Below the pieces are notes generated by a model. It was given only the letters and a program-made list of their open reading frames with translations. It was not told the DNA's origin and did not search any database. Made by a program: the position numbers and the translations under genes. From IMG/VR virus record IMGVR_UViG_3300045988_128600: a stretch of 64,000 nucleotides of DNA; one strand, 5' to 3'. The stretch's first letter is position 1. Every line of letters begins with the position of its first letter. Source of the stretch: a virus. Of the stretch, positions 2,836 to 53,722 are shown one piece after another.

Positions 2836-3143
2836 TAATAATTACGCCAATATCCAGGAATTTTATATCCTAAGAAATGACGATAAATTAAATAATCTTC
2901 ACTCATATTAGGATTTTCATCTTCATTACAATTATCACAATCACAATTATTGTTATCATTAATACTAGAATCAACAATTTTTTTAATTAAATTGTTAATA
3001 AGAGAATTGACTTCTTCATTTTCTCCATTATTTTCAATCCAATTTAAATAGATTACATATAATAAATCTTTGTAATCTCCAACATCAGATGGGTTAAAAG
3101 TGTCATCTAAATGTTGAATTTGTCTTTTCATTTCTTCAATCAT
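2835..3143 (-). CDS. small acidic Cys-containing protein (CDCDNC)
   Basis: ATG at 3143 overlaps the TGA of the upstream rSAM-SPASM gene (ATGA). It ends in TAA, which overlaps the next ATG. The position suggests a RiPP-recognition-element-like partner, but no motif proves it. Confidence 0.4.
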   Translation of the reverse strand: MIEEMKRQIQHLDDTFNPSDVGDYKDLLYVIYLNWIENNGENEEVNSLINNLIKKIVDSSINDNNNCDCDNCNEDENPNMSEDYLIYRHFLGYKIPGYWRNY

Positions 3144-6071: not shown

Positions 6072-6851
6072 TTAAGAACGTGATCTACCAGCGCCACTAC
6101 GATTTGTACTATTAGAAGTATAAGCCCCTCTATAGGCTCCTCTATAAGTACTTCTATTACCATTATTACTACTATAATTAGAACTTCTTACTCCATTATT
6201 ACTTGAGTAATTAGCAGTATAATAAGTATAATTACTTGAATAATTTGAACTTCTATTGCCATTATTACTACTATAGTTTGAACTTTTATTACCATTATTA
6301 CTTGAATAATCAGAAGAACGTTGGGCATTATTACTTGAATAATAAGAGCTTCTTTGGGCGTCATTACTACTATAATAAGAACTTCTTTGGGCGTCATTAC
6401 TACTATAATAAGAACTTCTTTGTGAATTATTGCTTGAATAATTAGAACTATTATAACTATTATTGCTTGTATAATCCGCACCATTATAGCTATTATTGCT
6501 TGTATAATTAGCACCACGATAACTATTATTACTTGTATAATCTGCTCCATTATAAGCGCAAATACCATTTATAGTATCAAGTTTACTTCTAATTTCTTCT
6601 AAGGGGACTCGTTTCATAAGCTCACTAGCTCTTGGAGCGGTAAAATTAGAAAAAATAGCCTAAGTTCCTACATAAGAAACATTTCTTAAATTTTCAATTT
6701 CATTTTTTAAAGTAGTAATGTCACTTTGTCTCGCATGACGCTCCCCGTTTGAGGAAGCAGTCGTGCGAGTTTGAGAAAAACGAGTCTAAGCAGTATTTAA
6801 AGTATCATATAGAGCGCGAACATCGCTCCATGAAATACGACTACCAGCCAT
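6072..6851 (-). CDS. repetitive S/N/Y-rich protein with leader-like N-terminus; candidate substrate (precursor) of the downstream rSAM/GT enzymes
   Basis: ATG at 6851-6849. Two in-frame TAGs (6786, 6660) join a non-repetitive about 80-aa N-terminal part to tandem about 10-11-aa repeats (YTSNNSY(R/N)G, QRSSYYSSN(D/N)A, NGN(K/R)SSNYSSN). Ends TAA. Confidence 0.55.
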
Positions 6852-11202: not shown

Positions 11203-11619
11203 TTAGTCCTCAGCGACAATCTTGCGATAAGCCACTTTCTTAGATGCCTTACCGCCATCAGCACCCGGAACGGAAACCTCAGTCTTCTCCGCGCGGTTCT
11301 CGCTCACAAGAGTGCGAAGTCGATAACTTGCCTTCTGTGCGGAGACATCCTCATTGCCAAGAGCCTTGACAATCTCAGGGATGGTCATAAACTCATCGTC
11401 ATAAAGAACATTATAAATCTGCTCAGTCAGTTCATCGCCCTCAGCACGCTTGGCGGCCGCACGCTCCTTAGCCTTGGCAGTCTTCTTGTCAAGCAACTCA
11501 ATCTCATGTTCACAAAATGCGATCACATCATCAGGATTATACTTGATCTCACCAGTCTTCATAGCCTCGATAATCGCGGTCAGATAGTCGCGCTTAGAAA
11601 CCTTAACTTCATTAATCAT
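11203..11619 (-). CDS. hypothetical protein, paralog family A (with 29741..30118 and 32307..32681)
   Basis: Shares the (E/N)HEIELL(D/A)KK motif and overall layout with the two early paralogs. Confidence 0.5.
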   Translation of the reverse strand: MINEVKVSKRDYLTAIIEAMKTGEIKYNPDDVIAFCEHEIELLDKKTAKAKERAAAKRAEGDELTEQIYNVLYDDEFMTIPEIVKALGNEDVSAQKASYRLRTLVSENRAEKTEVSVPGADGGKASKKVAYRKIVAED

Positions 11620-23985: not shown

Positions 23986-24109
23986 TTTTTATCACCTTTA
24001 ATAGTTTTTCTTTATTTTATATTTATATTATATATTAAAATTTAATAAAAATCAATAAAGCGGTTTTGTCGCCCCAAGGTGGTATAAAGACTGGGTTTAA
24101 TGATCGGCT

Positions 24110-24235
24110 TATCAAAAATGGTCATTTTAAATGAAAATGGTCAAAATTTTCTATATGTTGGTCTAAAATTTCTATATTTTTGTCCGTTTTTTTCTATATT
24201 TCTGGTCAAAAAATGCTGATAAAGAGATCGGATAG
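24110..24235. repeat. cluster of direct repeats (GGTCAAAATTTCTATAT-like, x4)
   Basis: The sequences ggtcattttaaatg, ggtcaaaattttctatatg, ggtctaaaatttctatatt and tttttctatatttctggtcaaaaaatg follow one another directly. Confidence 0.5.
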
Positions 24236-24259
24236 CAAGTATAGAGGCGGATTAGGGCA

Positions 24260-24455
24260 AGGAAAACCGCGTTGGTAATTTTTCATAGTTGCTTATTTTC
24301 ATATAGATGTCTAAATTTTAAACAAAATAGGTAAAAATTTTAGGTAATTTTTCATAGTTCCCTATTTTTATTTAGAATTTGTAGGTAATTTTTAATAGTT
24401 AGCGATCGGTTTAGTTAGAATTTTTAAGAAATTTTTCATAGTTGCCTTTAAAAAT
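24260..24455. repeat. iterons, TAGGTAATTTTTCATAGTT x4, upstream of the RepA_N-like gene
   Basis: Four spaced copies of ggtaatttttcatagtt (or ...aatagtt) separated by about 50 bp. Confidence 0.6.
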
Positions 24456-24505
24456 ATACTTTGGGTAAAAATTGTTAAAATTACTATTTTAGATTTGAAG
24501 TATAT

Positions 24506-25156
24506 ATGAAGGAGGTGGAAGCGTTGCCAGTAGAATAGAAAAGATTTCCTGCTAATGTAGATATGAATATATTAACTTTTTTAAATAATAAGAAAATAAA
24601 TGGTGAATTATATGCTTATTTATAGAGTTTATCTGAATATAATGTTATTAGTAAATAGCATAATATTTATAAAACTTATGTATTGAAAAAATGGTTGCCA
24701 ATTCAAAGTAAGATGTGTCAAATGCTTGGTATTAAAAGTCCTAAAACATTAAAAACGCATTTGAATTATTTAATTGAACAAGGGTATATTATAGAAGAAG
24801 AAGATAGATATATATTACCTGAAATGGAAAATATATATTTTCTTATTCCTTTACATACATTAAGATATATAAATGATAACTGTAAAGAACATATTATAAA
24901 GATATATATTTATTTGGGATAGCGTTATAAATATGCGTTAAATAATGGAAGTTAGTATGAATTTACATTAGAGGAAATTGGAGAACATAGCGGTATAAAA
25001 GTTAAGAATAATAGCAGAGGTTATGAAATTATTAATAATGCTTTAACGTTTTTATAGAATTCAGAATTGATTGATTATGTTAGTTTTTTTGATGGATAGA
25101 TGTAGAAAAAGAAATTAACAAAATTTAGTTTTGAATATAAAAATTAGAATAGGTAA
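24506..25156 (+). CDS. RepA_N / DnaD-like replication initiator (winged helix), TAG-recoded
   Basis: AAGGAGG SD then ATG at 24506. With 7 in-frame TAG read as sense the product is about 216 aa. ELYAYLQSLS...WLPIQSKMCQMLGIKSPKTLKTHLNYLIEQGYI matches the RepA_N helix-turn-helix pattern, and a second wing follows (TLEEIGEHSGI). Ends TAA at 25154-25156. Confidence 0.5.
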
Positions 25157-25240
25157 TTTTTAATAGTTGCTTAATAGGCATTTTAGGTAATTTTTCATAG
25201 ATGCTTCGACTTAAATTAGGTAAAAAATCATAGATTATCT
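25140..25240. repeat. iterons, TAGGTAATTTTT(C/A)ATAG x3, downstream of the RepA_N-like gene
   Basis: Same motif as at 24260-24455, so the gene is bracketed by the repeat on both sides. Confidence 0.55.
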
Positions 25241-25264
25241 AAGTAATAAGTAGAGGGTGTTTCC

Positions 25265-25330
25265 TAAGTAGTTTGTATGATACAAATGATCGGCTTCGCC
25301 TCACTTTGTATCATACAAACATTTGATTTT
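25265..25330 (+). terminator. long-stem hairpin terminator
   Basis: gtttgtatgatacaaa ... tttgtatcatacaaac, a 16-bp stem, followed by a T-run. Confidence 0.5.
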
Positions 25331-25352
25331 TTTGTAAGAAAGGTAATGTAGA

Positions 25353-25916
25353 ATGAAAAAAGAAGAATGGTCTAAATTAATAGGTCATGGAATAAGAGAA
25401 GATACTTATATTTTGTTAGAAAGAATGCGTGGTGGGGAAAAATATAATGATATTATAAAAGACATAGATAATAATAGAGAGAAATATCATATAAAGAAGT
25501 ATACTGCTTTATCAAAAAGAGAAACAGTAGAGAAATATTTGTTAATAGCTAATAATGAAGAAAAAGTTAAATTAAATAATATAGAAAATAAACATGGTAT
25601 TTATGGAATATATATAAATAATATTTTGATTTATATTGGCAAAACTACTACTTCATTTAAAGTAAGATTTCAATAGCATAAACATTTTATGAATGTAGAG
25701 GAAAATAAAGATTATTTATATTAGATATTAAAATGTGCTAAATAGAATAATTAGATTATAACATTAAAACCGCTTATTATAGTAGAAGATTTAAAAGTTC
25801 AATATCCTATCAAAGATAGAGATTTAGATGCTATGGAGTTAGCCTTAATAACTTTATATAAGCCTTAGTGTAATAAAATTATAGATTTTTTTAAGAGTAA
25901 AAGGAGTAAAATATGA
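25353..25916 (+). CDS. GIY-YIG homing endonuclease, TAG-recoded
   Basis: HGIYGIYINNILIYIGKT is a canonical GIY-(10)-YIG. Five in-frame TAGs extend it to about 187 aa; it ends in TGA. Confidence 0.6.
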
Positions 25917-27018: not shown

Positions 27019-27068
27019 ATGCCGATCGGTTTAACCAATCACCAACCACATTTTCCCCGTCTCCGCTC

Positions 27069-27110
27069 TCCGAGCCTAAAAAAAAGAGAGACTTTTTTTA
27101 GTCTCTCTTT
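27069..27110. terminator. bidirectional rho-independent terminator
   Basis: aaaagagagact-ttttttt-agtctctctttt hairpin. Confidence 0.6.
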
Positions 27111-27180
27111 TTTCATATTAAGCAATTCTTGGTGAAATTGTCGATTCTTAGAATGAAAAATATCTCATCCGACACATTGT

Positions 27181-27558
27181 TCACTTATTGATGAAAGTAT
27201 TCAAAAAATCGGCAATTACATCATCATCGGTTCTCTTAACCTTCTTAACCTTTACTGGCTCACTCTTGGGAAAAAGCACGTCAAGAAGACCGTTAACCCC
27301 GGTCATAAGACCGTAAACCTCAGCAAAGATGGTCTCCACATCGGACGCGGTCAACGCGGAATCCTTGCAGCCATTAAGAGCGGCATACTCGTTAATCCGA
27401 TCGGCGATTTCCTGCGCGAGCGCGGTCTTCCGATCGGCCTGCTTGGTTTCCTTCTCCACCTGCTTAACCGCATCATTCAGAGACTTAGCCATTTCGTCCG
27501 CAATAACCTGAGCGTCCTCACCATTTTTCAGACGAGCAATAATATCATTCATATCCAT
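27181..27558 (-). CDS. hypothetical protein
   Basis: Start placed at MDMNDII, directly after the middle-type promoter motif and SD. Confidence 0.45.
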   Translation of the reverse strand: MDMNDIIARLKNGEDAQVIADEMAKSLNDAVKQVEKETKQADRKTALAQEIADRINEYAALNGCKDSALTASDVETIFAEVYGLMTGVNGLLDVLFPKSEPVKVKKVKRTDDDVIADFLNTFINK

Positions 27559-27878
27559 ATGAATACCTCTTTTCTTATTTTCTATATATATTATATACTT
27601 TTTTTTTAAAAATGTCAAGATTTTTTTGGACGAAAACATACGCGTGAAACAATGTAAGGGCGAAGCAATTTTTAATTAATCATAAAGGCATATGATCCTA
27701 CGCGAGCTTAAAAAAGTCTTTTTTTACTATTATAACATATTTTTTATAAAAAGTCAATTTTCGGGATTTTTTTGGGCCATATGGAGAGGTGCTAGAAGTA
27801 TGAAAAATTTTGCATATGGGCATACCGATCGGAAACTCGGCCCGCGACGTTCCACCGCGGGCCGGTCAATCCAGTGTA

Positions 27879-28493
27879 TTAGAGTTCTTGAAGCAACTCC
27901 AAAGTTTTTTCGTATCCATACTTATTTATCAATCGAGTTGTTTCAATTATAATTTCTTTTCGATTCATTAGCATCCATCTGGGGTTATCTTCCGGCGAAC
28001 CCCATCTAAGATTTTCTAATCTATTATCAGTGCGGTTTCCGTTAATGTGATCTATAATCTATTCTTCAAAATTAATATTTGGTTGCCAAGATTGTAATAC
28101 TATACGATGTAAATTATAATTCTAATTATTAATAGAAACTCTAACATACCCCTAATAAATTGTTCCTTTTAAAATTATTTTAGTCCGTTTATTCCTAACT
28201 CGACCTAAATTAGAAACTTCATAATTCTTAGAGCAATAAGTTTCTATCCATTTTTCTCCATCTAATTCTGTCGTATCACTTCTGCGAGTAGAAAATAAAG
28301 ATTTATCAACGTCTTGCTTTTCCGTGCGCTCAACGGTATAAACTGCTTTTGCTCCAATACCTGTTCTTGTAATTAAGAATCCTCGTTTTAATTGATTCTT
28401 ACAAAACAAAGGAAAATTTGCACTAATTGTGGAGATTGCTACTCCAAAATAATCTGCTAATTCTTGTTTATTCAAAATAATCAGTCCTTTCAT
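27879..28493 (-). CDS. HNH homing endonuclease (N-terminal HTH, NUMOD4-like, HNH_3), TAG-recoded
   Basis: N-terminal HTH (QELADYFGVAISTIS) and a WIETYCSKNYEVSNLGRVRN NUMOD4-like motif precede TAG at 28152. Reading 4 TAGs as sense reveals DHINGNRTDNR-x-KNLRWGSPEDN, which is the HNH motif. Ends TAA at 27879-27881. Confidence 0.65.
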
Positions 28494-28654
28494 TATTATA
28501 TAAATTTTGGGATTTCATAATTTTCTATTTTTGTCCAATAATTTTTTTGCAAAATTTGCTAAACCTATAATTATTCCAAAATTCCGCCCGGAGCGTCAGT
28601 GATCGGGCGGTCCATTATACCACGTTTTCCGATCGGTGTCAATAGGTAAAATGC

Positions 28655-29740: not shown

Positions 29741-30118
29741 TTAACGCGCCATGCGGAAGTAGGACTTGCGCTTGTCCACAATCTTTTCCACCTTGTTGGC
29801 GTCAATCATCTGACGCAGAAGAGCGGAAACGCGCTGGTTGGTGAGGTCGCCCAGATCGTCCACATTCTTAATGAGGTCGGTCACGGTATACAGCTTGTCG
29901 GGGTTTGCGGTCATTTCAGCAAGGATAATGTCCTTGTAGCCGTCGTTGGCAATCTGATTCGCGGTCGGCTTCTTATCGCCCGCGTTCTTCTTGGCGAGCA
30001 ATTCGATTTCGTGGTTGATAAACTCAACCATAGCAGGGTCAGCCTGGACCTCGGACAGCTTGAGCAGAGCCTCGAAACGGTCGCGCTTGGTGAGCTTCTT
30101 AACAGTAGAAGTAGACAT
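29741..30118 (-). CDS. hypothetical protein, paralog family A
   Basis: About 60% identical to 32307..32681 over its length; shares the HEIELLAKKNAGDKKPTA motif. Confidence 0.55.
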   Translation of the reverse strand: MSTSTVKKLTKRDRFEALLKLSEVQADPAMVEFINHEIELLAKKNAGDKKPTANQIANDGYKDIILAEMTANPDKLYTVTDLIKNVDDLGDLTNQRVSALLRQMIDANKVEKIVDKRKSYFRMAR

Positions 30119-30169
30119 AGTATCAATTCCTTTCTTTGGCGGTAGGTCGCTACCCTTTTGATATTATTG

Positions 30170-30198
30170 AGTATACCACACTTTAGAGTGCTTGTCAA
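30170..30198 (-). promoter_or_regulatory. sigma70-type promoter TTGACA-N17-TATACT
   Basis: Read from the minus strand; it drives gene 29741..30118. Confidence 0.55.
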
Positions 30199-30647
30199 GA
30201 GGTTTCGCAAACTTTTCACACGAATTACCGCCCCGACCTGACGGATAATTTATTGTTTGTTGATTCAATCTATTTGTCAGCGGAAAACCGCGTCAAGGAT
30301 AGTTGGTTCAATCAAACTCACTTTCGCGTTCAACGTTTGGCTTTACAACGTGGTGTATTATGTTTACTTCCTATACTTTCTCAAGGTCGCGCGCCCTCGG
30401 ATTTCTTGGGCTACTCCCTCTCGACATTTTCTATTGTAGCACACTCGCTGGGATTTGTCAAGAGGGAATTTCAAATTTCTTTGAAAACGGGTCAGTTACC
30501 GAGTTATCACACCCATCAGCGAAGCCGTTTGGCAATTCACTGTTCCCTCCTGACATTATTCATTATAGCAGATTGCCCGTAGATTGCAATTGACAAAATA
30601 ACCAAATTACGGGAAAAAATTTTCTTCATTTTTGTGCAACTTTTCTC

Positions 30648-30676
30648 TTGACAAAATTGGCGGGGTGTGGTATAAT
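30648..30676 (+). promoter_or_regulatory. consensus sigma70-type promoter TTGACA-N17-(TGg)TATAAT on the plus strand
   Basis: Perfect -35 and -10 hexamers with a 17-bp spacer and an extended -10. It points opposite to the flanking genes. Confidence 0.5.
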
Positions 30677-30683
30677 GGAAAAT

Positions 30684-30790
30684 TCGGACCGCTGCGTACG
30701 CTGGCGGTCCGCCCATTTTATCACAAAAATCCGCATTTGTCAATAGGCAAAATAAACAAAAAAAACTGCCCATTTTTGGGCAGTTTTTTA
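30684..30790 (+). ncRNA. candidate about 105-nt sRNA (repeat-family copy E1)
   Basis: It starts downstream of the consensus promoter with a GC stem-loop (cggaccgc...gcggtccg). An A/U-rich segment follows, then the terminator hairpin ctgccca-ttttt-gggcag and a T-run. Confidence 0.35.
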
Positions 30791-30791
30791 T

Positions 30792-31037
30792 TTAGTCCAG
30801 CAGGTTGATTTCGCCGGGAATTGCGAAAGAATCAGCGTTCAATGTGTAGTTCCAGCCCGTGGCAAAAAATTCAATCGTTCCACACTCTCTGACGTAATTG
30901 TCTACTGACCGCCGAACGTTGTTCCAGAGGTCAGTCTGTCGGCTTTCCGCTCGGGCTTCCTTGACTTCCTTTATTTGGGCGATGAGTTCGTCCAGTTCCT
31001 CGTCAGTCATGCAATTAAAATCTAAATCCATTTTCAA
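30792..31037 (-). CDS. hypothetical protein
   Basis: 81-aa ORF. Confidence 0.45.
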   Translation of the reverse strand: MKMDLDFNCMTDEELDELIAQIKEVKEARAESRQTDLWNNVRRSVDNYVRECGTIEFFATGWNYTLNADSFAIPGEINLLD

Positions 31038-31339
31038 AACTCCCTTTTAATGGCTTTTTCCCACGCTTCACGGCCGAACTTTCCCTCGCGGTCTAACTTC
31101 TTGCCAATGTCTTTTGCGGTCAGCAGGTCAAGCTCGTCCGCAATCTCATCTTCAAAGTTTACCCAAGAGTCGTAAGTCTGAATAATGAGAACTTCATCAG
31201 CTTCAAAGACGCCACCGCACTCAGCGCAGATAATATAATCGTGGTCGATTAAAATACCCATGTGAGGGTCATTATCATCAGGGACTACAAAAAGGACTTG
31301 TTTAGCGTTCATGTGAAACACCTCTTTCATTTGATACAT
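31034..31339 (-). CDS. hypothetical protein
   Basis: 101-aa ORF; the promoter at 31341-31369 lies directly upstream. Confidence 0.45.
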   Translation of the reverse strand: MYQMKEVFHMNAKQVLFVVPDDNDPHMGILIDHDYIICAECGGVFEADEVLIIQTYDSWVNFEDEIADELDLLTAKDIGKKLDREGKFGREAWEKAIKREF

Positions 31340-31340
31340 T

Positions 31341-31369
31341 GATTATACCATAGGGAATAGGATTTGTCA
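31341..31369 (-). promoter_or_regulatory. sigma70-type promoter TTGACA-N17-TATAAT
   Basis: On the minus strand the element reads gggcTTGACAaatcctattccctatggTATAATcaa. Confidence 0.55.
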
Positions 31370-31389
31370 AGCCCTATTCCCTATTTTTT

Positions 31390-32166
31390 TTAGCTCATGT
31401 TTATCATGGGATTTTCCTTAATGTTTCGCATGAGCGCACGCTGAAACTCGGTCGGCTTGGGGCGTTCCACCGTGGGAGTTTTGAAAAGGGACTTTTCCAT
31501 TTTCTTGTGCTGTCGGACGCAATAGCGCAGAATCTCAACTTCAATGAGAACATCTTCTAATCCCGTGTGGGATTCATCAAAGCTGTCCTTACCGCTGATA
31601 AAGCGATAGAGAATTTCTGCGGTGAAACGGAGCTGTCCGTTCTTGGTCTTGTAGCCGTTCTTTTCGCAATAGTCGCGGTAAGTGGGCATTTTGCCGATAA
31701 CCTGACGTGCCATTTTCAACGTGTCCCAAATTTCGAGGTCGTAGGGGAAGAAATAGCGATACTTGCTTTTCGTGTCCCATCTTTGTGCGTTGTTGCAGGC
31801 GTTAAGGTCGAACCGCATATTGTGAGCGCACACAAAAGAGCAGTTGTAGCGCTCGACACATTCGCAAAACGCAAGACGAATTTCGTAAAGGTCAGCCATA
31901 ATGCGAATGCCGTTTTGAATATCCTCGACATAGCGAGGAATCTTGTTGGCATAGTATGCGGACTGCATGAGGTCGCGTTCGTAGCAGAAAATGTCGCGAT
32001 TCACAAAGGAATGAGTTTCATAAACATTTCCCTTGGAATCAATGACTGCCCAGCCGAAGTCGTAGGGAAGCACATTTGACATATCCAGCTTATTACCGTC
32101 CTGAATGGTGTTTGCGGTTTCCGTGTCCAGCATAATGCCGTAGTTTTTGCGCCTATCAATACCCAT
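31390..32166 (-). CDS. DnaQ-like 3'-5' exonuclease (DEDDh)
   Basis: IMLDTETAN (Exo I), CAHNMRFDLN (Exo II) and HTGLEDVLIEVE (Exo III, H-x4-D) motifs. Confidence 0.6.
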   Translation of the reverse strand: MGIDRRKNYGIMLDTETANTIQDGNKLDMSNVLPYDFGWAVIDSKGNVYETHSFVNRDIFCYERDLMQSAYYANKIPRYVEDIQNGIRIMADLYEIRLAFCECVERYNCSFVCAHNMRFDLNACNNAQRWDTKSKYRYFFPYDLEIWDTLKMARQVIGKMPTYRDYCEKNGYKTKNGQLRFTAEILYRFISGKDSFDESHTGLEDVLIEVEILRYCVRQHKKMEKSLFKTPTVERPKPTEFQRALMRNIKENPMINMS

Positions 32167-32306
32167 TTTATCGTCTCCTATTGGAAAAGTAGATTGAGGT
32201 TTACCATCGTTCTCTCAACCTCTAAATATAGTATAGCACTTTGCTATTGGTTTGTCAACAGTTTTTTTTGTGGGGCAGGGGATTTTTTATCCCCTGCCCT
32301 TTTCCC

Positions 32307-32681
32307 TTATGCGTGGGAGAAGTAGGACTTGCGCTTGTCAACCGTCTTGACAACCGTGCCTGCATCAATCATCTGACGCAGAAGAGCAGAAACACGCTGG
32401 TTGGAATACTCCGCAAGCTCGGGAACGCCCTTGATGAGGTCGGTCACGGTATACAGCTTGTCAGGGTTTGCGGTCATCTCGTCCAGAATGACCTGCTTCA
32501 CAGCGTCATTCTCCATCTGCTTGGCCGTGGGCTTCTTATCGCCCGCGTTCTTCTTGGCGAGCAATTCAATCTCATGCTCGATGAACGCCACCATGTCAGG
32601 ATTTGCCTGAACCTCGCTCATTTTGAGCAGAGCCTCGAAACGGTCGCGCTTGGTGAGCTTCTTAACAGTAGAAGTAGACAT
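32307..32681 (-). CDS. hypothetical protein, paralog family A
   Basis: Paralog of 29741..30118 and 11203..11619. Confidence 0.55.
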   Translation of the reverse strand: MSTSTVKKLTKRDRFEALLKMSEVQANPDMVAFIEHEIELLAKKNAGDKKPTAKQMENDAVKQVILDEMTANPDKLYTVTDLIKGVPELAEYSNQRVSALLRQMIDAGTVVKTVDKRKSYFSHA

Positions 32682-33184
32682 AGTATCAATTCCTTTCTGG
32701 TTTTTGAGACTGTCCTTGTCTTTGATGTAGTTATTATATCATAGGTGGCGCAGGTTGTCAATAGGTTTTGCAAATTTTTTTTAGGGGCGGTCGCGAGGTT
32801 TATTACTATACATCTTGTTTATACCTACCTTTATCTATAATCATAAACCAATTCATTTTACTAAACCAAATTAGTCTTTAAGGCGGTGGACGAGCATTAG
32901 AAGTCATCTTGTTTTTACCTCTCTCATTTGATGTATTCATTATACCCTACGTAGAACGGTTTGTCAAGGGGTTTTTCAAACTTTTTTTTTGAAAGTTTGT
33001 TCGGCACGCCACGCTTGGAACATTCCGTCGGATTTTGGTATAATGGTCAAGGGAACTGCCTTTCCGCAGGTCTTACTCTTTCCTCCTGACATTATGTAGT
33101 ATAGCAGATTGGTAATGATTTGTCTATTGGCAGAATGACCAAATAACGGGAAAAAATAAAATTGAAATTTGTGCAAAATTTCTC

Positions 33185-33213
33185 TTGACAAAAATGCTGG
33201 CAGGGTGTATAAT
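33185..33213 (+). promoter_or_regulatory. consensus TTGACA-N17-TATAAT promoter on the plus strand (repeat copy E2)
   Basis: Same layout as the promoter at 30648-30676. Confidence 0.45.
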
Positions 33214-33219
33214 GGTAAA

Positions 33220-33330
33220 TTCCGGTCGCAACATGCGTTAGCGACCGGCCAATTTTATCACATTTAAGGAACTTTGTCAATAGTCAAAGTAAACAAAAAA
33301 ATCTCCCCATTTTTGGGAAGATTTTCTTTT
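33220..33330 (+). ncRNA. candidate sRNA (repeat-family copy E2)
   Basis: GC stem-loop ccggtcgc...gcgaccgg, then the terminator tctcccca-ttttt-gggaaga and a T-run. Confidence 0.3.
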
Positions 33331-33604
33331 AGCCAATCACATTGACCTCGGTTTTGATAGGCGTTACCATCTTGTCGCGCGGGAACTCGCGAACCTGACC
33401 CGTTTCAAGATTCACCGCGTAGCAATACTGCGGGCCTCTCGACCGGACAAACGGCGTGTTGTTGTTGCTGTCAATTTTAAGATACATTCCCATACCGCTA
33501 CCATTGGAACGCAGAGTGGTGAACGTGCCACCGCTGAGAACGTTGATAATCTGGAACTGACCCTTAGTGCCAAAATTTACTTTCATTTTTATTTCCTCTT
33601 TCAA
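33329..33604 (-). CDS. hypothetical protein
   Basis: 91-aa ORF. Confidence 0.4.
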   Translation of the reverse strand: MKEEIKMKVNFGTKGQFQIINVLSGGTFTTLRSNGSGMGMYLKIDSNNNTPFVRSRGPQYCYAVNLETGQVREFPRDKMVTPIKTEVNVIG

Positions 33605-33915
33605 AATTCTTCTAAGAAGTGAATCGGTTTATGATTTGGTCTGAAAAATGCCATTCCCTCGGTATAAAGAGAATTAAACAAATCCGCAGACACTTCAAAC
33701 CATTCCGTGCCACTAATGCGATTGCCCAACTCACTTAAAGTCAGATGACAAGAATTTTCCATGTCTCGGCTTCCAGCGCAAGTGCTACGCATTATTGCTT
33801 TTGGATTATGGGTGTAATAGGTTTTACGACGATTTGCAAGGTTTTTAGTGCCGTCAGAATAGCCAACTTTAACCAAATGACTATTGGCTAAATTATCCAT
33901 CATCAAATACAGCAT
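33601..33915 (-). CDS. hypothetical protein; weak T5orf172/GIY-YIG-like signature
   Basis: VKVGYSDGTKNLANRR loosely resembles the T5orf172 motif; the resemblance is weak. Confidence 0.3.
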   Translation of the reverse strand: MLYLMMDNLANSHLVKVGYSDGTKNLANRRKTYYTHNPKAIMRSTCAGSRDMENSCHLTLSELGNRISGTEWFEVSADLFNSLYTEGMAFFRPNHKPIHFLEEF

Positions 33916-33922
33916 TTTTACC

Positions 33923-34066
33923 TCACAACAGATGGGTATTGACCCAATCTGCGGTCACAAGTCCGATTTCCTTAGAGACAACCGTTTCATAGCGGTAATT
34001 ACCGCCATCAGTTCGTCCGGTCACTTTGGCGAGAACGCCAAGGGTAAGCCAAAAATAAGGCATCAT
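33923..34066 (-). CDS. small hypothetical protein (47 aa)
   Basis: AAAGGGG SD then ATG, immediately after the stop of the upstream TM peptide. Confidence 0.3.
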   Translation of the reverse strand: MMPYFWLTLGVLAKVTGRTDGGNYRYETVVSKEIGLVTADWVNTHLL

Positions 34067-34071
34067 TTTTA

Positions 34072-34278
34072 TCACCCCTTTGAACCGACCGTAAAGAGCG
34101 AACGCAGAAGCAACAGAACAATCCAAATTGCGAGCGCCAGCTTCCACGAGAACACGATGACGAAAGTGCCGATTGCGGTGATACCAAGGGCGGGAAGAAG
34201 CCAACAGAGAAGCCAAACCAGACCAGAGGTAAGCAGGAACGAAATTGCGAGAGACAGCAGAATCAAAAGAACAAACAT
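34072..34278 (-). CDS. small membrane protein (2 TM)
   Basis: Consensus promoter at 34309-34337, then SD and ATG; strongly hydrophobic. Confidence 0.5.
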   Translation of the reverse strand: MFVLLILLSLAISFLLTSGLVWLLCWLLPALGITAIGTFVIVFSWKLALAIWIVLLLLRSLFTVGSKG

Positions 34279-34308
34279 TTTATTTTTTCCTTTTCATTTG
34301 ATGTATTT

Positions 34309-34337
34309 ATTATACCATTGGAGTAGGGCTTTGTCAA
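34309..34337 (-). promoter_or_regulatory. sigma70-type promoter TTGACA-N17-TATAAT
   Basis: On the minus strand the element reads gggcTTGACAaagccctactccaatggTATAATaaa. Confidence 0.55.
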
Positions 34338-34834
34338 GCCCTTTTCTCCAAAAGTTCCGAAAGTTTTTCGATAATGTTTACTGTGGTCGGGTCAATGGTA
34401 GCGCCCAAGTGCCAACCATTCCGAACCTTTTCATTATCGTCAACCAAGATGGACACGTCATAGCGGTCGCGCACGCTGTCGGCCTTAGTCGCGCCATACT
34501 GGACGCCGTGGAAGTGGTCATAGTGGAAGCCCTGTTCTTTAAGCCACGCGCGCTTTGCTTCACGCACGAGGTTTTTGTATTCCTCGCTCGAATCCTTAGA
34601 GAGCCAAGTAATGATATTGATTTCCCAGCCCTCGGCGCGGAGAAGTTCGCAAACCTCATTCAATTCAGCCATGTCACACATGGGGACGGCAGTTCGATAG
34701 GGCTTAGGGTTTTCCGAACGGAGAAGCGCGAGCCAATCCTTGACGCCGTAGAGGTCAGCGATAGTGCCGTCCATGTCAAAGTTAATGGAGCGTCGAGTGG
34801 CCACAACGTGGGACTTGATGTAAGTGATTTTCAT
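34334..34834 (-). CDS. HAD-superfamily 5'(3')-deoxyribonucleotidase-like phosphatase (NT5C family)
   Basis: INFDMDGTIADL matches HAD motif I (DxDG) as found in dNMP phosphatases. ILVDDN supplies motif III. Confidence 0.55.
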   Translation of the reverse strand: MKITYIKSHVVATRRSINFDMDGTIADLYGVKDWLALLRSENPKPYRTAVPMCDMAELNEVCELLRAEGWEINIITWLSKDSSEEYKNLVREAKRAWLKEQGFHYDHFHGVQYGATKADSVRDRYDVSILVDDNEKVRNGWHLGATIDPTTVNIIEKLSELLEKRA

Positions 34835-34846
34835 AGGTGCTTACCT

Positions 34847-34875
34847 CTTTCCTTTACTATGCTTGTATTATACCA
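34847..34875 (-). promoter_or_regulatory. consensus sigma70-type promoter TTGACA-N17-(TGg)TATAAT
   Basis: tgtcaa at 34870-34875 and attata at 34847-34852 on the plus strand; the spacer is exactly 17 bp. Confidence 0.6.
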
Positions 34876-34926
34876 CTATTGGATTTGCTTGTCAAGTGTT
34901 TTTTTTCAAAATTTTCGCGGTCTTTC

Positions 34927-35070
34927 TTAATACACGAAAGATAAGAAATTAAGCAAAATCAACACAGGAATAGCGTAAACGATATTGAAAGAGTCCCACC
35001 CGAGACTTTCACAGGAATAAGCAAAAATAAAGCCAAAAACGAGGCCGAAAATGCCGATTAAAATAATCAT
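34927..35070 (-). CDS. small membrane peptide (about 47 aa)
   Basis: GGAGGA SD then ATG (MIILIGIFGL...). Confidence 0.4.
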   Translation of the reverse strand: MIILIGIFGLVFGFIFAYSCESLGWDSFNIVYAIPVLILLNFLSFVY

Positions 35071-35330
35071 TCTAAATCCTCCAAGTGGCCGAAATGTTCG
35101 TTGATATGCCATTCAAGATAGGCATTAGTCGCAATCTGAATTTCTCTATCCAGCCAGTCATAAAAATCCTCGGGGTCGCGGGCCATGCGTTCATCAATGA
35201 TATCTTTGAGAGAAACGCGGTGAGCAAGGAATTCCGAAATATCAAGAGAATCCATAGAAGAAAGAAGCTCTTCCGCACATTCTCCGCGAGTAGAGAACTT
35301 TTCAGTAGAAAAATCGTGAGTGTAATACAT
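35067..35330 (-). CDS. hypothetical protein
   Basis: 87-aa ORF. Confidence 0.4.
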   Translation of the reverse strand: MYYTHDFSTEKFSTRGECAEELLSSMDSLDISEFLAHRVSLKDIIDERMARDPEDFYDWLDREIQIATNAYLEWHINEHFGHLEDLE

Positions 35331-35352
35331 TGTTTGTACCTCCTATGAGTAT

Positions 35353-35607
35353 TCAGAAAAGAATTTTACCAACAGTAGAGAAATTATTATCATCATTGAT
35401 ATAATATTCCTCTTCGTAGGTATTATACTCAATACTCCCAAAAGCGGAACAATAGTTCTTGATTGCTTCTACGACTTCATTCCACGCGGTCTCCTTTGCA
35501 CAAAGCCGTCTATGTTCAAGCTCATCGGCGATAACCAACTGTAAATGAGACAGGTCTTCGGCAGAGATTGTCTCAACAGGATTAGTAAGTAAATTCTTAA
35601 TTTCCAT
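35353..35607 (-). CDS. hypothetical protein
   Basis: 84-aa ORF. Confidence 0.4.
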   Translation of the reverse strand: MEIKNLLTNPVETISAEDLSHLQLVIADELEHRRLCAKETAWNEVVEAIKNYCSAFGSIEYNTYEEEYYINDDNNFSTVGKILF

Positions 35608-35725
35608 TTTATGTTCCCCTTTCCTTTACGGTAATCATAGTATAGCAGATTATTACATTCTTGTCTATTGGCAAAATGCCCAAATTCGGGAAAATAATTA
35701 GTTGGACTTTTGGCTAAATTTCCTA

Positions 35726-35754
35726 TTGACAAATTGCTGAGATGGTGGTATAAT
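35726..35754 (+). promoter_or_regulatory. consensus TTGACA-N17-TATAAT promoter on the plus strand (repeat copy E3)
   Basis: ATTGACAaattgctgagatggtgGTATAATgg. Confidence 0.45.
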
Positions 35755-35760
35755 GGAATT

Positions 35761-35870
35761 TCCGGCCGTGGCAGGCGCAAACGGCCGGTCATTTTATCAC
35801 ACTATTGGATTTTTGTCAATAGGCAAAATAGCTAAAAAATGAGGTGAATTTTCACCTCAAATTTTATCTG
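35761..35870 (+). ncRNA. candidate sRNA (repeat-family copy E3)
   Basis: GC stem-loop ccggccg...cggccgg, then the hairpin gaggtgaa-tttt-cacctc. Confidence 0.3.
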
Positions 35871-36045
35871 TAATAACGGGTAGTAATGGTTTTGAAAATC
35901 TGATAGATATTTTCATCTTCCATCAACTTTTGGATAAAAGCATCAGCTTTTTCTTCGGAATCAAAACTGATTCGATTTTCATAATACTGGTCCCAAGGAT
36001 TTTTACCGCTGTAATCAACCCGGAATGTCTTTTCAATTTCCATTT
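35866..36045 (-). CDS. small hypothetical protein (59 aa)
   Basis: ATG ORF with SD; it lies below the 60-aa cutoff of the ORF track. Confidence 0.3.
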
Positions 36046-36120
36046 TATTTGCCCCTTTTCTTTGATTCTTTTATTGTAGCACAAGGGACTTGTTTTGTCA
36101 AGTCCCTTGTGCTATTTTTT

Positions 36121-36573
36121 TTAACGTTCAGATACAATGCTGAGGTAGCGGACAATCATGTCCATTTCGCAACCCTTGTCTTGCTGGTCGCAAACCGCAT
36201 AACCCACAAGGTCGCCGTCCGCACAAATCGGGTAAACGCCATAAGTGTTATTGAAAACAAACGGCTTTCTTTCAAATTCCCATTGGGTCGGAACGTAGGC
36301 CGGATAGTTTTCCATACCCCGCAGTTTCACGGTAGTATCATAGATTGCGATAGGACGCAGACCGGAATTCGATGCCATTGTAATAGCGGTTCGCAGAGCT
36401 TCTTCGGTCAGCGAACCAAGCACCGAATACCTCTTGAAGCAAACGCAGTCGTTGTCTTCAATGAAGATTTCGAGCGGATCGCCCTCGCGAATCTTCAAAG
36501 TCCGGCGAATCTCTTTCGGAATGACCACACGTCCAAGGTCATCAATTCTGCGGACAATACCAGTAGCTTTCAT
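36121..36573 (-). CDS. AbrB/SpoVT-family (swapped-hairpin) DNA-binding regulator
   Basis: The N-terminus MKATGIVRRIDDLGRVVIPKEIRRTLKIREGDPLEIF matches the AbrB N-domain consensus. About 100 further aa follow at the C-terminus. Confidence 0.65.
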   Translation of the reverse strand: MKATGIVRRIDDLGRVVIPKEIRRTLKIREGDPLEIFIEDNDCVCFKRYSVLGSLTEEALRTAITMASNSGLRPIAIYDTTVKLRGMENYPAYVPTQWEFERKPFVFNNTYGVYPICADGDLVGYAVCDQQDKGCEMDMIVRYLSIVSER

Positions 36574-36637
36574 TTTAATTTTCCCCTTTCATTTGATACG
36601 TTAAGTATAGCAGAATAAAAGGCTTTTGTCAAGCCCT

Positions 36638-37117
36638 TTATTCAAGATTTTTGCTTTCGTAAGCAGAAATTTTTCCGTTGCAGGTATGCGCGATTTCCTT
36701 AACTGCTTTTGTCTGCTCTTGCGTGGAACAGTAGCAATTAAACATAATCCACTTACCCGCATAGAAATAATTACACGGAATGTCATGGTCAGTTACCATT
36801 AACTTCACAATATCGGCGTTATAGTCCGCGGAAACAGCAAATTCAATTTTCCATAGCTTATCTTTACGCGCTTTCTCTTCAATCCACTTGACAAGGTAAA
36901 CGCCTACGAAATTACAAATGGCAGTAATAGCCATTTTCAACCAGATGGGCATACCGTCCGCGGAAGTCAGCACAATCACATAGGAATAAAAACCATAAGT
37001 GATAGCATTGATAAAAGATGCGCTAAACTTCCCACCGTTGACAGTCAAGATGCTTTTGATAGTTGACAGAATCACATTCACCGCCGTGCAAAGCGCGAAC
37101 AGAAGAATTGTATTCAT
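36638..37117 (-). CDS. membrane protein
   Basis: Several TM helices in the N-terminal half. Confidence 0.45.
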   Translation of the reverse strand: MNTILLFALCTAVNVILSTIKSILTVNGGKFSASFINAITYGFYSYVIVLTSADGMPIWLKMAITAICNFVGVYLVKWIEEKARKDKLWKIEFAVSADYNADIVKLMVTDHDIPCNYFYAGKWIMFNCYCSTQEQTKAVKEIAHTCNGKISAYESKNLE

Positions 37118-37362
37118 TCTACCACCTCAATATCGCAGTAAATACAGTCGGTAATATCGACGTATTCCTCAAAGTTCATTCTTTTATCGTCGCGGTGTGT
37201 AAAGTCGATGTAGGCATCTTTACCGCGAAGATTATTCTCTTCATTATATGCGCGAGTGGCATTGTCAAAAGCCTTAATAGCGTCAGCTTCATTATAAACC
37301 ACCACTTCTTTGACTTCCAGAGCATCATACCAAATAGTATATTTCTTTTTCATTATTATCAC
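37114..37362 (-). CDS. hypothetical protein
   Basis: 82-aa ORF. Confidence 0.4.
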   Translation of the reverse strand: MIIMKKKYTIWYDALEVKEVVVYNEADAIKAFDNATRAYNEENNLRGKDAYIDFTHRDDKRMNFEEYVDITDCIYCDIEVVE

Positions 37363-37577
37363 CCTTTCCTTTTTCTATTATAATAATATCATATTATAAT
37401 AGAAATGTCAATAGAGAGTTTTTAATTTACTCTTTTAATTTTTCTAATAAGTCATCAGCACATTCATAGCTGATACTTCTGCGGTCGCACTCGTTGGACA
37501 AAGGACAACAAGCGCAGTCGTTAAAGGTTTCCGTCCAAGCGCGCAACCAGTCAATCAAGCGCAAAGTATTAACTTCC

Positions 37578-37880
37578 TCATACATTGTTTTCAGTCTCCT
37601 TTACTCGGACAAAAAAGACCTTGTTATAGATTTTCGTCGCTTTAAGGTCAATCCAAAAATACACATTTCCACATACTCGATAGATTTTACAAGTCTCTCC
37701 GCTGACCTTTTTGACTTCCTCAAATTTCTCTGGCGTAGTGGGGTGGAAAACCGTCAGTTTAAGGAATATGCAATAGAAAGATAAAGGAACAAAGCCGATA
37801 ATCAGAGCAATCCATGCGAGAACGTCAGTTAAAGTGTTTTCCCCATTCGCACCATTCGTCGGTGATTGTAGCGAACGCAA
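37578..37880 (-). CDS. hypothetical membrane protein
   Basis: Contains a TM segment. A 32-aa hydrophobic mini-ORF (37825-37923) lies just upstream on the same strand. Confidence 0.35.
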   Translation of the reverse strand: MRSLQSPTNGANGENTLTDVLAWIALIIGFVPLSFYCIFLKLTVFHPTTPEKFEEVKKVSGETCKIYRVCGNVYFWIDLKATKIYNKVFFVRVKETENNV

Positions 37881-38150
37881 TACCCACGCAAAATGCGAGA
37901 ATCAACCAATACCATGCCACCATTATTTTATTCCCCCTTTATTTGTTGTATACATCTTACCACATTATAGGATTTTTGTCTATTGGCATTTTACACAAAA
38001 ATTCGTGCGAAAATTTGTTGAACTTACCTCTTGACAAAAAACTCGGCGCGCCACAATCGTCCGCGCGCCGACAATTTTATCACATTCAAGGAACTTTGTC
38101 AATAGTGAAAGTAAACAAAAAAAATCACCCAAATTGGGTGATTTTTTCAT

Positions 38151-53705: not shown

Positions 53706-53722
53706 GAAAGGAGAAAAGGATA

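What the first reader, a model, noticed from the sequence alone, without database searches (positions are those of the whole stretch)
24110..25240. RepA_N-like initiator gene bracketed by iterons; candidate replication origin
A winged-helix RepA_N/DnaD-like protein (24506-25156, TAG-recoded) has four copies of TAGGTAATTTTTCATAGTT upstream (24260-24455) and three downstream (25140-25240). A separate cluster of GGTCAAAATTTCTATAT-like repeats lies at 24110-24235. Iteron-flanked initiators are typical of theta or rolling-circle phage and plasmid origins.
Basis: partly seen in the sequence, partly recalled or inferred. Interest (0 to 1): 0.6.

Follow-up and report, generated by a model that had tools for sequence, protein, structure and literature searches.

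The report
Iteron-flanked two-winged-helix initiator-like phage gene
A gut phage that reads TAG as glutamine carries a small DNA-binding gene flanked by repeated binding sites, laid out like a plasmid replication origin, and the protein belongs to an undescribed family also found on tiny gut plasmids.

Summary
The 19-mer TAGGTAATTTTTCATAGTT occurs four times upstream and three times downstream of a 216-codon ORF (24506-25156, nine in-frame TAG). All copies are on the + strand and none lies elsewhere in the 64 kb. A 21-22-bp tandem array lies at 24117-24225.

The protein is a tandem winged-helix protein of an uncharacterised metagenomic family (536 clusters). It gives no RepA_N or DnaD profile hit. 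Its second domain matches the WH1 domain of Rep_3 initiators in a profile-profile comparison (91.7%).

In 15 lineages (43-94% identity) the layout is kept:
- direct GGTAA-W5-NNTAG sites upstream;
- an inverted GGGTAAAA...TTTTACC repeat before the gene;
- direct sites starting at the stop codon;
- then a conserved TATCTAA A/T-rich element and a hairpin.

The GGTAA half and the first recognition helix are invariant. The second half-site changes together with the second helix.

Distant family members carry their own iterons. One sits on a ~4.75-kb circular element with no known Rep, where 23-bp iterons are followed by CCTAAT repeats.

The best reading is an autoregulated, iteron-type origin with its initiator, organised like mini-F or P1 (confidence about 0.5). 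GC skew is uninformative, no replication genes are nearby, and replication is unproven.

The parts
24027..24055 (-). Leftward sigma-70-type promoter (TTGATT-17-TATAAT) of the neighbouring minus-strand gene block. It marks the left boundary of the module and is not part of it.
   Evidence: Best promoter-like match in the region, 10 of 12 positions. The same AT-rich block is present in relatives L001, L005, L008 and L010.
24099..24110 (+). First copy of the exact 12-mer AATGATCGGCTT, which contains GATCGG. Role unknown.
   Evidence: Direct-repeat family D10. All four GATC sites of the locus are GATCGG in one orientation.
24117..24225 (+). Second repeat family: about five tandem units of 21-22 bp (TGGTCAAAATTTTCTATAT). 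It is an accessory element that varies between lineages.
   Evidence: Tandem Repeats Finder: 24138-24211, period 21, 3.4 copies. Present in L001, absent in L005 and L010, and replaced by a different repeat in L008.
24272..24290 (+). Upstream iteron 1 (TTGGTAATTTTTCATAGTT).
24330..24341 (+). Isolated GGTAA half-site (GGTAAAAATTTT) directly before iteron 2. It is conserved in relatives.
   Evidence: same half-site at -176 to -203 in L014, L015, L016, L017, L019
24341..24359 (+). Upstream iteron 2 (TAGGTAATTTTTCATAGTT, exact consensus).
24382..24400 (+). Upstream iteron 3 (TAGGTAATTTTTAATAGTT), followed by GCGATCGGTTT.
24425..24443 (+). Upstream iteron 4 (TAAGAAATTTTTCATAGTT). It overlaps the -35-like hexamer of the best rightward promoter-like site (TTTTCA-16-TATACT, 24433-24460).
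24463..24484 (+). Inverted repeat of the GGTAA half-site (GGGTAAAAATTGTTAAAATTAC), a candidate autoregulatory operator just before the ribosome-binding site.
   Evidence: Plus- and minus-strand GGTAA hits face each other at -40 to -80 in L015, L016, L019, L021, L024, L025, L026 and L027. In the window the right arm is TTACT rather than TTACC.
24506..25156 (+). Gene for the 216-aa tandem winged-helix protein. It has 9 in-frame TAG read as Gln, a TAA stop, an AGGAGG ribosome-binding site at 24511, and an alternative in-frame TTG start at 24524.
25150..25168 (+). Downstream iteron 5 (TAGGTAATTTTTAATAGTT), overlapping the stop codon.
25184..25202 (+). Downstream iteron 6 (TAGGTAATTTTTCATAGAT).
25217..25235 (+). 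Downstream iteron 7 (TAGGTAAAAAATCATAGAT), the conserved variant with an A-rich spacer.
25236..25253 (+). Conserved TATCTAA followed by A/T-rich short repeats (GTAATAAGTAG). This is the candidate DNA-unwinding element.
   Evidence: TATCTAA follows the last iteron in 17 of 19 lineages examined, with (C)TAA(G/A)TA units repeated 2-5 times. The plasmid homologs have CCTAAT or CTAAT three times at the same place.
25271..25336 (+). Perfect 16-bp stem hairpin (25271-25320) with a T-run. Its loop holds the second AATGATCGGCTT copy and a GGCTTCGCC motif. It is a likely intrinsic terminator of the gene, so transcription would run through the downstream iterons.
   Evidence: Inverted repeat I3. RNA fold -28.5 kcal/mol, z = -4.8. 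Hairpins with different stems and CTTCG(C) loops occupy the same position in all lineages.

Best explanation
The locus is a self-contained iteron-type replicon module: a candidate phage origin of replication together with its autoregulated initiator. Shown: the ORF encodes a protein with two winged-helix domains. Seven 19-bp sites in one orientation bracket the gene. An inverted repeat of one half-site lies just before the gene. Inferred: monomers bind each 19-bp site with both domains. The first domain, whose helix IKSPKTxRxHLxYL is invariant, reads GGTAA. The second domain, whose helix (SRGYEIINNAL in this phage) varies between lineages, reads CATAG one helical turn away. Dimers bind the inverted GGTAA repeat and the promoter-proximal iterons and so repress the protein's own gene. 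Protein loaded on the array that starts at the stop codon opens the adjacent conserved TATCTAA/TAAGTA A/T-rich element, where a helicase is loaded. The upstream array acts in autoregulation or by pairing with the downstream array. Because the gene needs nine TAG codons read as Gln, the initiator can only be made once TAG suppression is active in the infected cell.
For: (1) Repeat statistics and strict single orientation, with copies unique to this locus in 64 kb.
(2) The AlphaFold model (pLDDT 79) shows two winged-helix domains.
(3) The architecture is conserved in 15 lineages at 43-94% protein identity: direct sites upstream, an inverted half-site repeat at -40 to -80, and direct sites beginning at or just after the stop codon. 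One lineage (L010) has at least 12 downstream copies at 29/38-bp spacing.
(4) Covariation: the GGTAA half-site and the first recognition helix are invariant. The second half-site (CATAG, GGATAG, TCTAA, GCTAG, ATCTAC, TATAG) changes together with the second recognition helix.
(5) Carrying its own iterons is a family trait. Distant members have their own direct repeats next to the gene (L034: 5 copies starting at the stop; L036: 4 copies at 23-bp spacing starting just after the stop of a family-like 197-aa ORF and upstream of the P0155 gene; pRGI00117: 3 copies of 23 bp just after the stop).
(6) A family member (profile E 3e-15) sits on a ~4.75-kb circular element. That element has no recognisable Rep, 3-4 iterons of 23 bp, three CCTAAT repeats of about 11 nt, and a hairpin.
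(7) The same order 'iterons, then ATC(C)TAA short A/T-rich repeats, then hairpin' is found in the phages and in both plasmids. Two-winged-helix Rep proteins are known to bind iterons and also the repeated elements of the adjacent unwinding element (PMC4081077).
(8) A profile-profile match of the second domain to Rep_3 WH1 scores 91.7%, E 8e-7. Reversed and shuffled controls score 0.4% or less. Seven of 55 members give sub-threshold Rep3_N hits. PHROG replication-initiator or DnaD-like families are hit by several members. The annotated viral structural neighbours are mostly 'replication initiator' or 'replisome organizer'.
Against: No experiment or coverage data show replication starting here.
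GC skew gives no support. The flip at 24 kb tracks gene orientation, and GC-matched minus-strand blocks left and right of the locus have the same coding-strand skew (0.106 vs 0.124).
There are no DnaA boxes at the locus.
None of the 10 larger early ORFs that were scanned matched a polymerase, helicase, primase or helicase-loader family; one gave a weak match to a DNA polymerase exonuclease subunit.
Neither the query nor any tested member reached the gathering cut-off of a curated Rep family. Fold matches are generic single winged helices.
Plasmid pRGI00117 has a canonical Rep_3 with its own iterons besides the family member, so there the member is not needed as the only Rep.
Half of the distant members hit a PHROG named ScpB.
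Iteron spacing is irregular (33-69 bp), not the classical 22 bp.
A gene with 9 TAG codons is an odd choice for a function usually needed early.
Confidence: 0.5

Rival explanations
1. It is an autoregulated transcription factor with no role in replication. The protein binds the repeats to control its own small rightward operon, and perhaps the divergent leftward early promoter, for example as a timing switch.
For: Only generic HTH, CRP, MarR or LexA-type hits reach significance for many members. Promoter-like hexamers overlap iterons 2-4, and the inverted repeat sits just before the ribosome-binding site. The locus lies at a divergent promoter junction.
Against: Multiple same-orientation bipartite sites placed after the stop codon, up to 12 or more copies, are not needed for promoter control. 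No copies lie near any other gene in 64 kb, including the late block. The conserved A/T-rich element after the last site recurs on small plasmids. The upstream sites are more than 200 bp from the leftward promoter in this window.
Confidence: 0.22
2. It is a centromere-like or DNA-organising system. The repeats would be a loading site for a tandem winged-helix protein of the ScpB/kite or TubR/ParR type, which segregates or compacts phage or plasmid DNA.
For: PHROG 3396 ('ScpB') is hit by 27 of 55 members (best E 1.6e-15). JetB, ScpB and MukE appear among the fold hits. TubR is a weak profile hit. On pRGI00117 the member coexists with a separate Rep_3 replicon.
Against: No ParA, ParM, TubZ, SMC or kleisin gene is adjacent in any of the contexts inspected. 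The PHROG name probably reflects only the shared tandem winged-helix fold. A gene with 9 TAG codons could not be expressed in a standard-code carrier state, where partition would matter.
Confidence: 0.12
3. It is a packaging recognition (pac/cos-like) site. The winged-helix protein would act as a small-terminase-like recognition factor.
For: Small terminases such as lambda Nu1 use a winged helix to bind repeated sites near the cut site (from my own knowledge). Several short relatives' contigs end inside the repeat region (L003, L004).
Against: A terminase/portal-like late block lies 20 kb away, at 45-51 kb. The long contigs are permuted with respect to the locus. The same protein-plus-repeat module occurs on 4.75-7-kb plasmids that have no packaging genes.
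Confidence: 0.04

Closest known systems
Mini-F (ori2/incB - repE - incC) and P1 (incC - repA - incA) iteron replicons, with Rep_3-type initiators (RepE, pi, pPS10 RepA, TrfA)
   Same: The initiator has two winged-helix domains. Directly repeated sites of about 19 bp lie on both sides of the initiator gene. An inverted repeat sharing one half of the iteron lies at the gene's own promoter. An A/T-rich element with short repeats lies next to an iteron array. (The F and P1 layouts are from my own knowledge; Rep binding to iterons and to the unwinding element is from PMC4081077.) The second domain matches Rep_3 WH1 profile-to-profile.
   Different: No Pfam Rep3_N or Rep3_C hit reaches threshold. 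The homology signal covers only one domain (57 columns). The domain that appears to read the half-site shared with the operator is the N-terminal one. Spacing is irregular (33-69 bp). There are no DnaA boxes. The host genome is a ~190-kb lytic-looking, TAG-recoded phage, and the gene itself carries 9 TAG codons.
RepA_N initiators of Firmicutes plasmids (pSK41, pTZ2162; PDB 4pql, 4pta, 5kbj)
   Different: There is no PF06970 hit. The similarity is no better than to CRP, TFE or ORC2 domains. In RepA_N replicons the iterons lie inside the rep gene (from my own knowledge), whereas here none lie inside the ORF.
Phage origin-binding initiators and replisome organisers (lambda O, SPP1 G38P, Phage_rep_org_N, DnaD-like)
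   Same: These are phage-encoded proteins that bind direct repeats at the origin. A few distant family members hit these PHROG or Pfam models. Viral structural neighbours carry such names.
   Different: In those systems the origin repeats usually lie inside the initiator gene, and a helicase-loader or helicase gene follows (from my own knowledge). Here the repeats flank the gene and the neighbours are small genes of unknown function.
ScpB and other kite proteins; TubR and ParR centromere binders
   Same: They share the tandem winged-helix fold (ScpB) or the binding of arrays of direct repeats next to their own gene (TubR, ParR).
   Different: No SMC/kleisin or NTPase partner gene is adjacent. 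No ScpB Pfam hit was reported.

Membership tests
RepA_N (PF06970) | Profile match to the RepA_N N-terminal domain | tested here: not met
   Pfam scan of the protein at E up to 1 gives no RepA_N hit, and RepA_N is not among the 25 Pfam families most often matched by the 55 distant members. Profile searches against PDB sequences do not retrieve 4pql, 4pta or 5kbj.
RepA_N (PF06970) | Fold of the DNA-binding domain resembles the RepA_N N-terminal domain specifically | tested here: inconclusive
RepA_N (PF06970) | Origin iterons located inside the rep coding sequence (from my own knowledge of pSK41- and pAD1-type replicons) | tested here: not met
   No iteron copy lies inside 24506-25149. All copies are flanking.
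DnaD / replisome organiser (DnaD-like, Phage_rep_org_N) | Profile match | tested here: not met
   There is none for this protein. Only 1 of 55 distant members hits Phage_rep_org_N, and 6 of 55 hit a PHROG DnaD-like loader.
Rep_3 iteron initiators (PF01051 + PF21205) | Pfam Rep3_N / Rep3_C above the gathering score | tested here: not met
   No hit for this protein. Seven of 55 distant members give sub-threshold Rep3_N hits (best E 1.3e-4; for P0247, 21.4 bits against a cut-off of 22.4).
Rep_3 iteron initiators (PF01051 + PF21205) | Detectable homology by profile-profile comparison | tested here: inconclusive
   hhalign of the family profile against a 31-sequence Rep_3 alignment gives 91.7%, E 8e-7, but over only 57 columns (second domain to WH1). 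Reversed and shuffled controls give 0.4% or less. No control against an unrelated winged-helix family was run.
Rep_3 iteron initiators (PF01051 + PF21205) | Two winged-helix domains in one polypeptide | tested here: met
   AlphaFold model: domain A about residues 30-113, domain B about residues 116-207, mean pLDDT 79.
Iteron-type replicon (functional class) | Directly repeated, same-orientation binding sites next to the initiator gene, specific to the cognate protein | tested here: met
   Covariation of the second half-site with the second recognition helix. Binding itself is inferred.
Iteron-type replicon (functional class) | Inverted repeat sharing part of the iteron at the initiator's own promoter (autorepression) | tested here: met
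   GGGTAAAA-N-TTTTACC at -40 to -80 in at least eight lineages. The position relative to the promoter is inferred.
Iteron-type replicon (functional class) | A/T-rich unwinding element with short repeats adjacent to the iterons | tested here: inconclusive
   A conserved TATCTAA plus (TAAGTA)n follows the last iteron. The analogous CCTAAT x3 or CTAAT x3 is found on the plasmids. The element is short, and unwinding was not tested.
Iteron-type replicon (functional class) | The fragment supports autonomous replication, or replication starts there | not testable with these tools
   GC skew is uninformative. No read-coverage data are available.
Centromere / partition system (ParR, TubR) or SMC kite (ScpB) | Adjacent partner NTPase (ParA, ParM, TubZ) or SMC/kleisin gene | tested here: not met
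   Precomputed Pfam annotation of neighbours within 3-6 kb on either side in relatives and on the 4.75-kb element shows none.

The most novel reading that the evidence does not exclude
The locus is a working phage origin whose initiator belongs to a previously undescribed family of two-winged-helix Rep proteins shared by ~190-kb TAG-recoded gut phages and cryptic gut plasmids. Because three quarters of the initiator's Gln codons are TAG, firing of this origin would be gated by the phage's switch to genetic code 15. Stop-codon recoding would then time DNA replication and not only late and lysis genes.
Probability: 0.15. Interest if true: 0.7.

Novelty: new variant of a known kind. Interest (0 to 1): 0.45.

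Why it matters
If confirmed, this would define a new family of iteron-binding initiators: 536 clusters at 50% identity, all metagenomic, none matching a curated Rep model. It would also give the first experimentally tractable origin for a large group of uncultured, TAG-recoded human-gut phages and for small gut plasmids. The clear bipartite site, and its covariation with the two recognition helices, offers a ready-made specificity code to test. An initiator gene this rich in TAG would extend the idea that recoding controls the timing of the phage programme to include replication. If the module proves to be only a regulator, it remains a well-defined protein-operator pair that is useful for annotating these genomes.

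Tried and rejected
- GC and cumulative skew looked suggestive, with a minimum near 23 kb. Per-gene coding-strand skew, matched for GC, is the same on both sides of the locus, so I rejected it as evidence.
- DnaA boxes: none at the locus.
- DNA similarity and tblastn against GenBank phages found nothing, both for the query and for two distant members.
- Rfam: nothing meaningful.
- PDB sequence searches with both profiles returned only generic HTH regulators.
- The afdb50 fold library was unavailable.
- tRNA scan of the window: no tRNAs, so no suppressor tRNA is seen here.
- Source names for cluster members: none exist.
- Gene contexts of other distant members were not informative about replication. 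They were phage fragments, or a member lying between two serine recombinases.
- A search for a second family member in the window, which might bind the 21-bp repeats, found none.
- Reading the 19-mers as a general phage promoter motif was rejected, because no copy lies elsewhere in 64 kb, including the late gene block.
- Treating the exact 12-mer pair at 24099 and 25285 as a target-site duplication of an inserted element was considered and not adopted. The whole module is syntenic in all relatives, and the motif recurs as GATCGG within the locus.
- A rolling-circle reading (iterons plus a hairpin with a conserved loop) was considered and set aside. The invariant and nearly invariant residues show no HUH-type motif, and the model is two winged-helix domains with no nuclease domain.

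Full report
**Observation.**
- The core GGTAATTTTTCATAGTT (up to 3 mismatches) occurs six times in the 64-kb window. All copies are on the + strand and all are at this locus (24274, 24343, 24384, 24427, 25152, 25186). About one is expected by chance, and no shuffle reached six.
- A seventh copy at 25217-25235 keeps both ends of the motif but has an A-rich spacer. The same variant holds the same position in relatives.
- The first downstream copy overlaps the stop codon.
- A separate tandem array of 21-22-bp units (consensus TGGTCAAAATTTTCTATATTT) lies at 24138-24211, with degenerate units on each side.

**The gene.**
- ORF 24506-25156 is open only if TAG is sense. It has nine in-frame TAG codons, a TAA stop and an AGGAGG ribosome-binding site.
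- The window is a phage genome in which low-GC genes use TAG and almost never CAG, while higher-GC genes use CAG and never TAG. This gene has 9 TAG, 3 CAA and 0 CAG.
- In orthologs the TAG positions align with CAA/CAG glutamine codons of other lineages (for example YLGqRYK against YLGQRYK). All phage orthologs recovered over their whole length are also TAG-rich, with 3-11 TAG.
- No tRNA gene lies in the window.

**The protein.**
- Pfam and PHROGs give this sequence only sub-threshold generic helix-turn-helix hits. There is no RepA_N, DnaD or Rep_3 hit.
- The family is large: 409 close homologs and 536 clusters at 50% identity. It is entirely metagenomic and unnamed. Close homologs sit on contigs of up to ~200 kb from human-gut samples.
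- An AlphaFold model built on 38 homologs (pLDDT 79) shows two winged-helix domains in tandem.
- Among predicted viral structures the best full-length matches are uncharacterised gut-phage proteins. The annotated ones are mostly called replication initiator or replisome organizer.
- Scanning 55 distant members gives mixed weak signals: HTH_36 (18 members), DUF6945 (13), Rep3_N (7, sub-threshold), a PHROG named ScpB (27), and PHROG replication-initiator or DnaD-like families (3-6 each).
- A profile-profile comparison with a 31-sequence Rep_3 alignment aligns the second domain with Rep_3 WH1 at 91.7% probability (E 8e-7, 57 columns). Reversed or shuffled controls give 0.4% or less.

**Conservation of the DNA architecture.**
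- Synteny is conserved. The gene lies on the + strand between two minus-strand blocks.
- In 15 lineages with 43-94% protein identity the same layout recurs:
  - two to six direct GGTAA-W5-NNTAG sites upstream;
  - an inverted GGGTAAAA-N-TTTTACC repeat at -40 to -80;
  - one to more than twelve direct sites beginning at or just after the stop codon.
- The GGTAA half-site never changes, and neither does the first recognition helix (IKSPKTxRxHLxYL).
- The second half-site differs between lineages, and the second recognition helix changes with it:

| Second half-site | Second recognition helix |
|---|---|
| CATAG | SRGYEII |
| GGATAG | AKQYEVV / SAGYRVV |
| ATCTAC or ATCTAT | SRAYTLI / SRNSQIV |

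- TCTAA, GCTAG and TATAG half-sites occur in further lineages.
- This is the pattern expected if one protein molecule reads each site with both domains, one helical turn apart. Binding itself is inferred.
- After the last downstream site, 17 of 19 lineages have TATCTAA. It is followed by 2-5 short (C)TAA(G/A)TA repeats and then a stable hairpin. The stems of that hairpin differ between lineages, but the loops keep CTTCG(C).
- In the window the hairpin (25271-25320) folds at -28.5 kcal/mol (z = -4.8) and is followed by a T-run. It is most simply an intrinsic terminator.

**A family trait, also on plasmids.**
- More distant members carry their own different direct repeats beside the gene. L034 has five copies starting at the stop codon. 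L036 has four copies at 23-bp spacing starting just after the stop of a family-like 197-aa ORF and upstream of the P0155 gene.
- A true homolog (hhalign 97.6%) on the 7.2-kb plasmid pRGI00117 has three 23-bp repeats 28 nt after its stop, followed by three CTAAT repeats. That plasmid also has a canonical Rep_3 gene with its own three 22-bp iterons.
- A member of 267 aa (profile E 3e-15) is found on many ~4.75-kb circularly permuted contigs with 127-nt terminal overlaps.
- That element has no recognisable Rep. Its only other large ORF is an unknown 247-aa protein.
- It carries three to four 23-bp iterons, followed by three CCTAAT repeats of about 11 nt and a hairpin.
- This is the organisation of a theta-type iteron origin. 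Two-winged-helix Rep proteins are known to bind both the iterons and the repeated elements of the neighbouring unwinding element (PMC4081077).

**Most likely mechanism.** The locus most likely works as an autoregulated iteron replicon.
- Monomers occupy the 19-bp sites.
- Dimers on the inverted repeat and on the promoter-proximal sites shut off the gene.
- The array that starts at the stop codon directs opening of the adjacent TATCTAA/TAAGTA element.
- The upstream array serves control.

The layout (repeats, then the gene with an inverted-repeat operator, then repeats) is that of mini-F and P1 (from my own knowledge). The fold, the sites, their conservation and the covariation are shown. Binding, autorepression, unwinding and replication are inferred. 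I put this reading at about 0.5.

**What weakens it.**
- GC skew gives no independent support. Its sign follows gene orientation, and GC-matched minus-strand genes to the left and right of the locus have the same coding-strand skew.
- There are no DnaA boxes at the locus.
- None of the 10 larger early ORFs that were scanned matched a polymerase, helicase, primase or helicase-loader family; one gave only a weak match to a DNA polymerase exonuclease subunit.
- Site spacing is irregular.
- pRGI00117 does not need the family member as its only Rep.
- A gene that needs nine TAG read-throughs is unexpected for an early function. However, TAG density in this genome follows GC content more than gene class, and the source paper on recoded phages reports variable recoding of replication genes (bioRxiv 10.1101/2021.08.26.457843).

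**Rival readings.** The rivals are a purely transcriptional autoregulator (0.22), a centromere-like or DNA-organising protein (0.12), and a packaging site (0.04).

**Comparison with known systems and novelty.** The module works like Rep_3-type iteron replicons, but membership is not established. Curated Rep_3, RepA_N and DnaD models are not matched, and only one domain shows remote homology to Rep_3 WH1. I classify it as a new variant of a known kind. It is of moderate interest because it concerns a large, uncharacterised family in uncultured TAG-recoded gut phages and small plasmids, and because it makes clear, testable predictions.

Noticed in passing
window 25353-25916 (+): A GIY-YIG-like ORF (GIYGIY...YIGKT) with 5 in-frame TAG lies right after the terminator hairpin. 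It is missing at this position in the closest relatives L013 and L014, so it is an indel, probably a homing endonuclease. A homolog also lies downstream of the winged-helix gene in L018. In L036 a similar nuclease region is fused to a family-like winged-helix N-terminus (P0155).
   Followed up: partly
window 24102, 24226, 24404, 25288; exact 12-mers at 24099-24110 and 25285-25296: All four GATC sites of the locus are GATCGG in the same orientation. Two of them are part of the exact repeat AATGATCGGCTT, and the second copy sits in the hairpin loop. In L014 and L017 the motif continues as GATCGGTTTACC, which is an inverted GGTAA half-site. The role is unknown.
   Followed up: partly
window 27022-28631 and 30000-38000: Five CCGATCGG palindromes cluster between 27.0 and 28.6 kb. 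In contrast, there is no GATC at all from 30 to 36 kb and only a single site between 30 and 40 kb.
   Followed up: no
whole window (gene list): There are two codon classes. Low-GC genes use TAG for Gln and almost no CAG. Higher-GC genes use CAG and no TAG. None of the 63 ORFs tabulated (all delimited by TAA or TGA) contains a TAG that would end it earlier in the TAG-free class. The capsid-like late genes (52788-54829, 58795-59793) are TAG-free, so TAG density follows GC content or expression level rather than a simple early/late split.
   Followed up: partly
window 27879-28493 (-): An HNH endonuclease with a NUMOD4 motif (Pfam E 2.5e-10 and 3.4e-8) carries 3 in-frame TAG. It is a second homing-endonuclease-like gene within 3 kb of the locus.
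   Followed up: partly
L030-L033 (about 4.75-kb circular contigs): A small circular gut element (GC 27%) encodes a family member (267 aa), an unknown 247-aa protein and two Xre-type HTH proteins. It has 23-bp iterons, CCTAAT x3 and a 21-bp hairpin, and no known Rep family. It is seen in many samples.
   Followed up: partly
window 25271-25320 and the same position in L001, L005, L008, L010, L016, L017, L020, L024, L026, L027: The hairpin after the iterons is conserved in position. Its stems are different, apparently compensatory, and its loops keep CTTCG(C). It is probably a terminator, but the conserved loop could mean more.
   Followed up: partly
window 29741-30118 (-), 32307-32681 (-), 11203-11619 (-): Two near-identical paralogs (MSTSTVKKLTKRDRFEALLK...) lie 2.5 kb apart, and a third, more distant copy is also present. 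Function unknown.
   Followed up: no
window 195-6038 (-): Three large TAG-containing ORFs begin with CxxxCxxC-type motifs reminiscent of radical-SAM enzymes. This was not checked against Pfam.
   Followed up: no
L012 (plasmid pRGI00117, HG796263.1): This 7.2-kb plasmid carries two separate protein-plus-iteron modules. One is a canonical Rep_3 with three 22-bp iterons (1186-1251). The other is a family member with three 23-bp iterons (6629-6692).
   Followed up: partly
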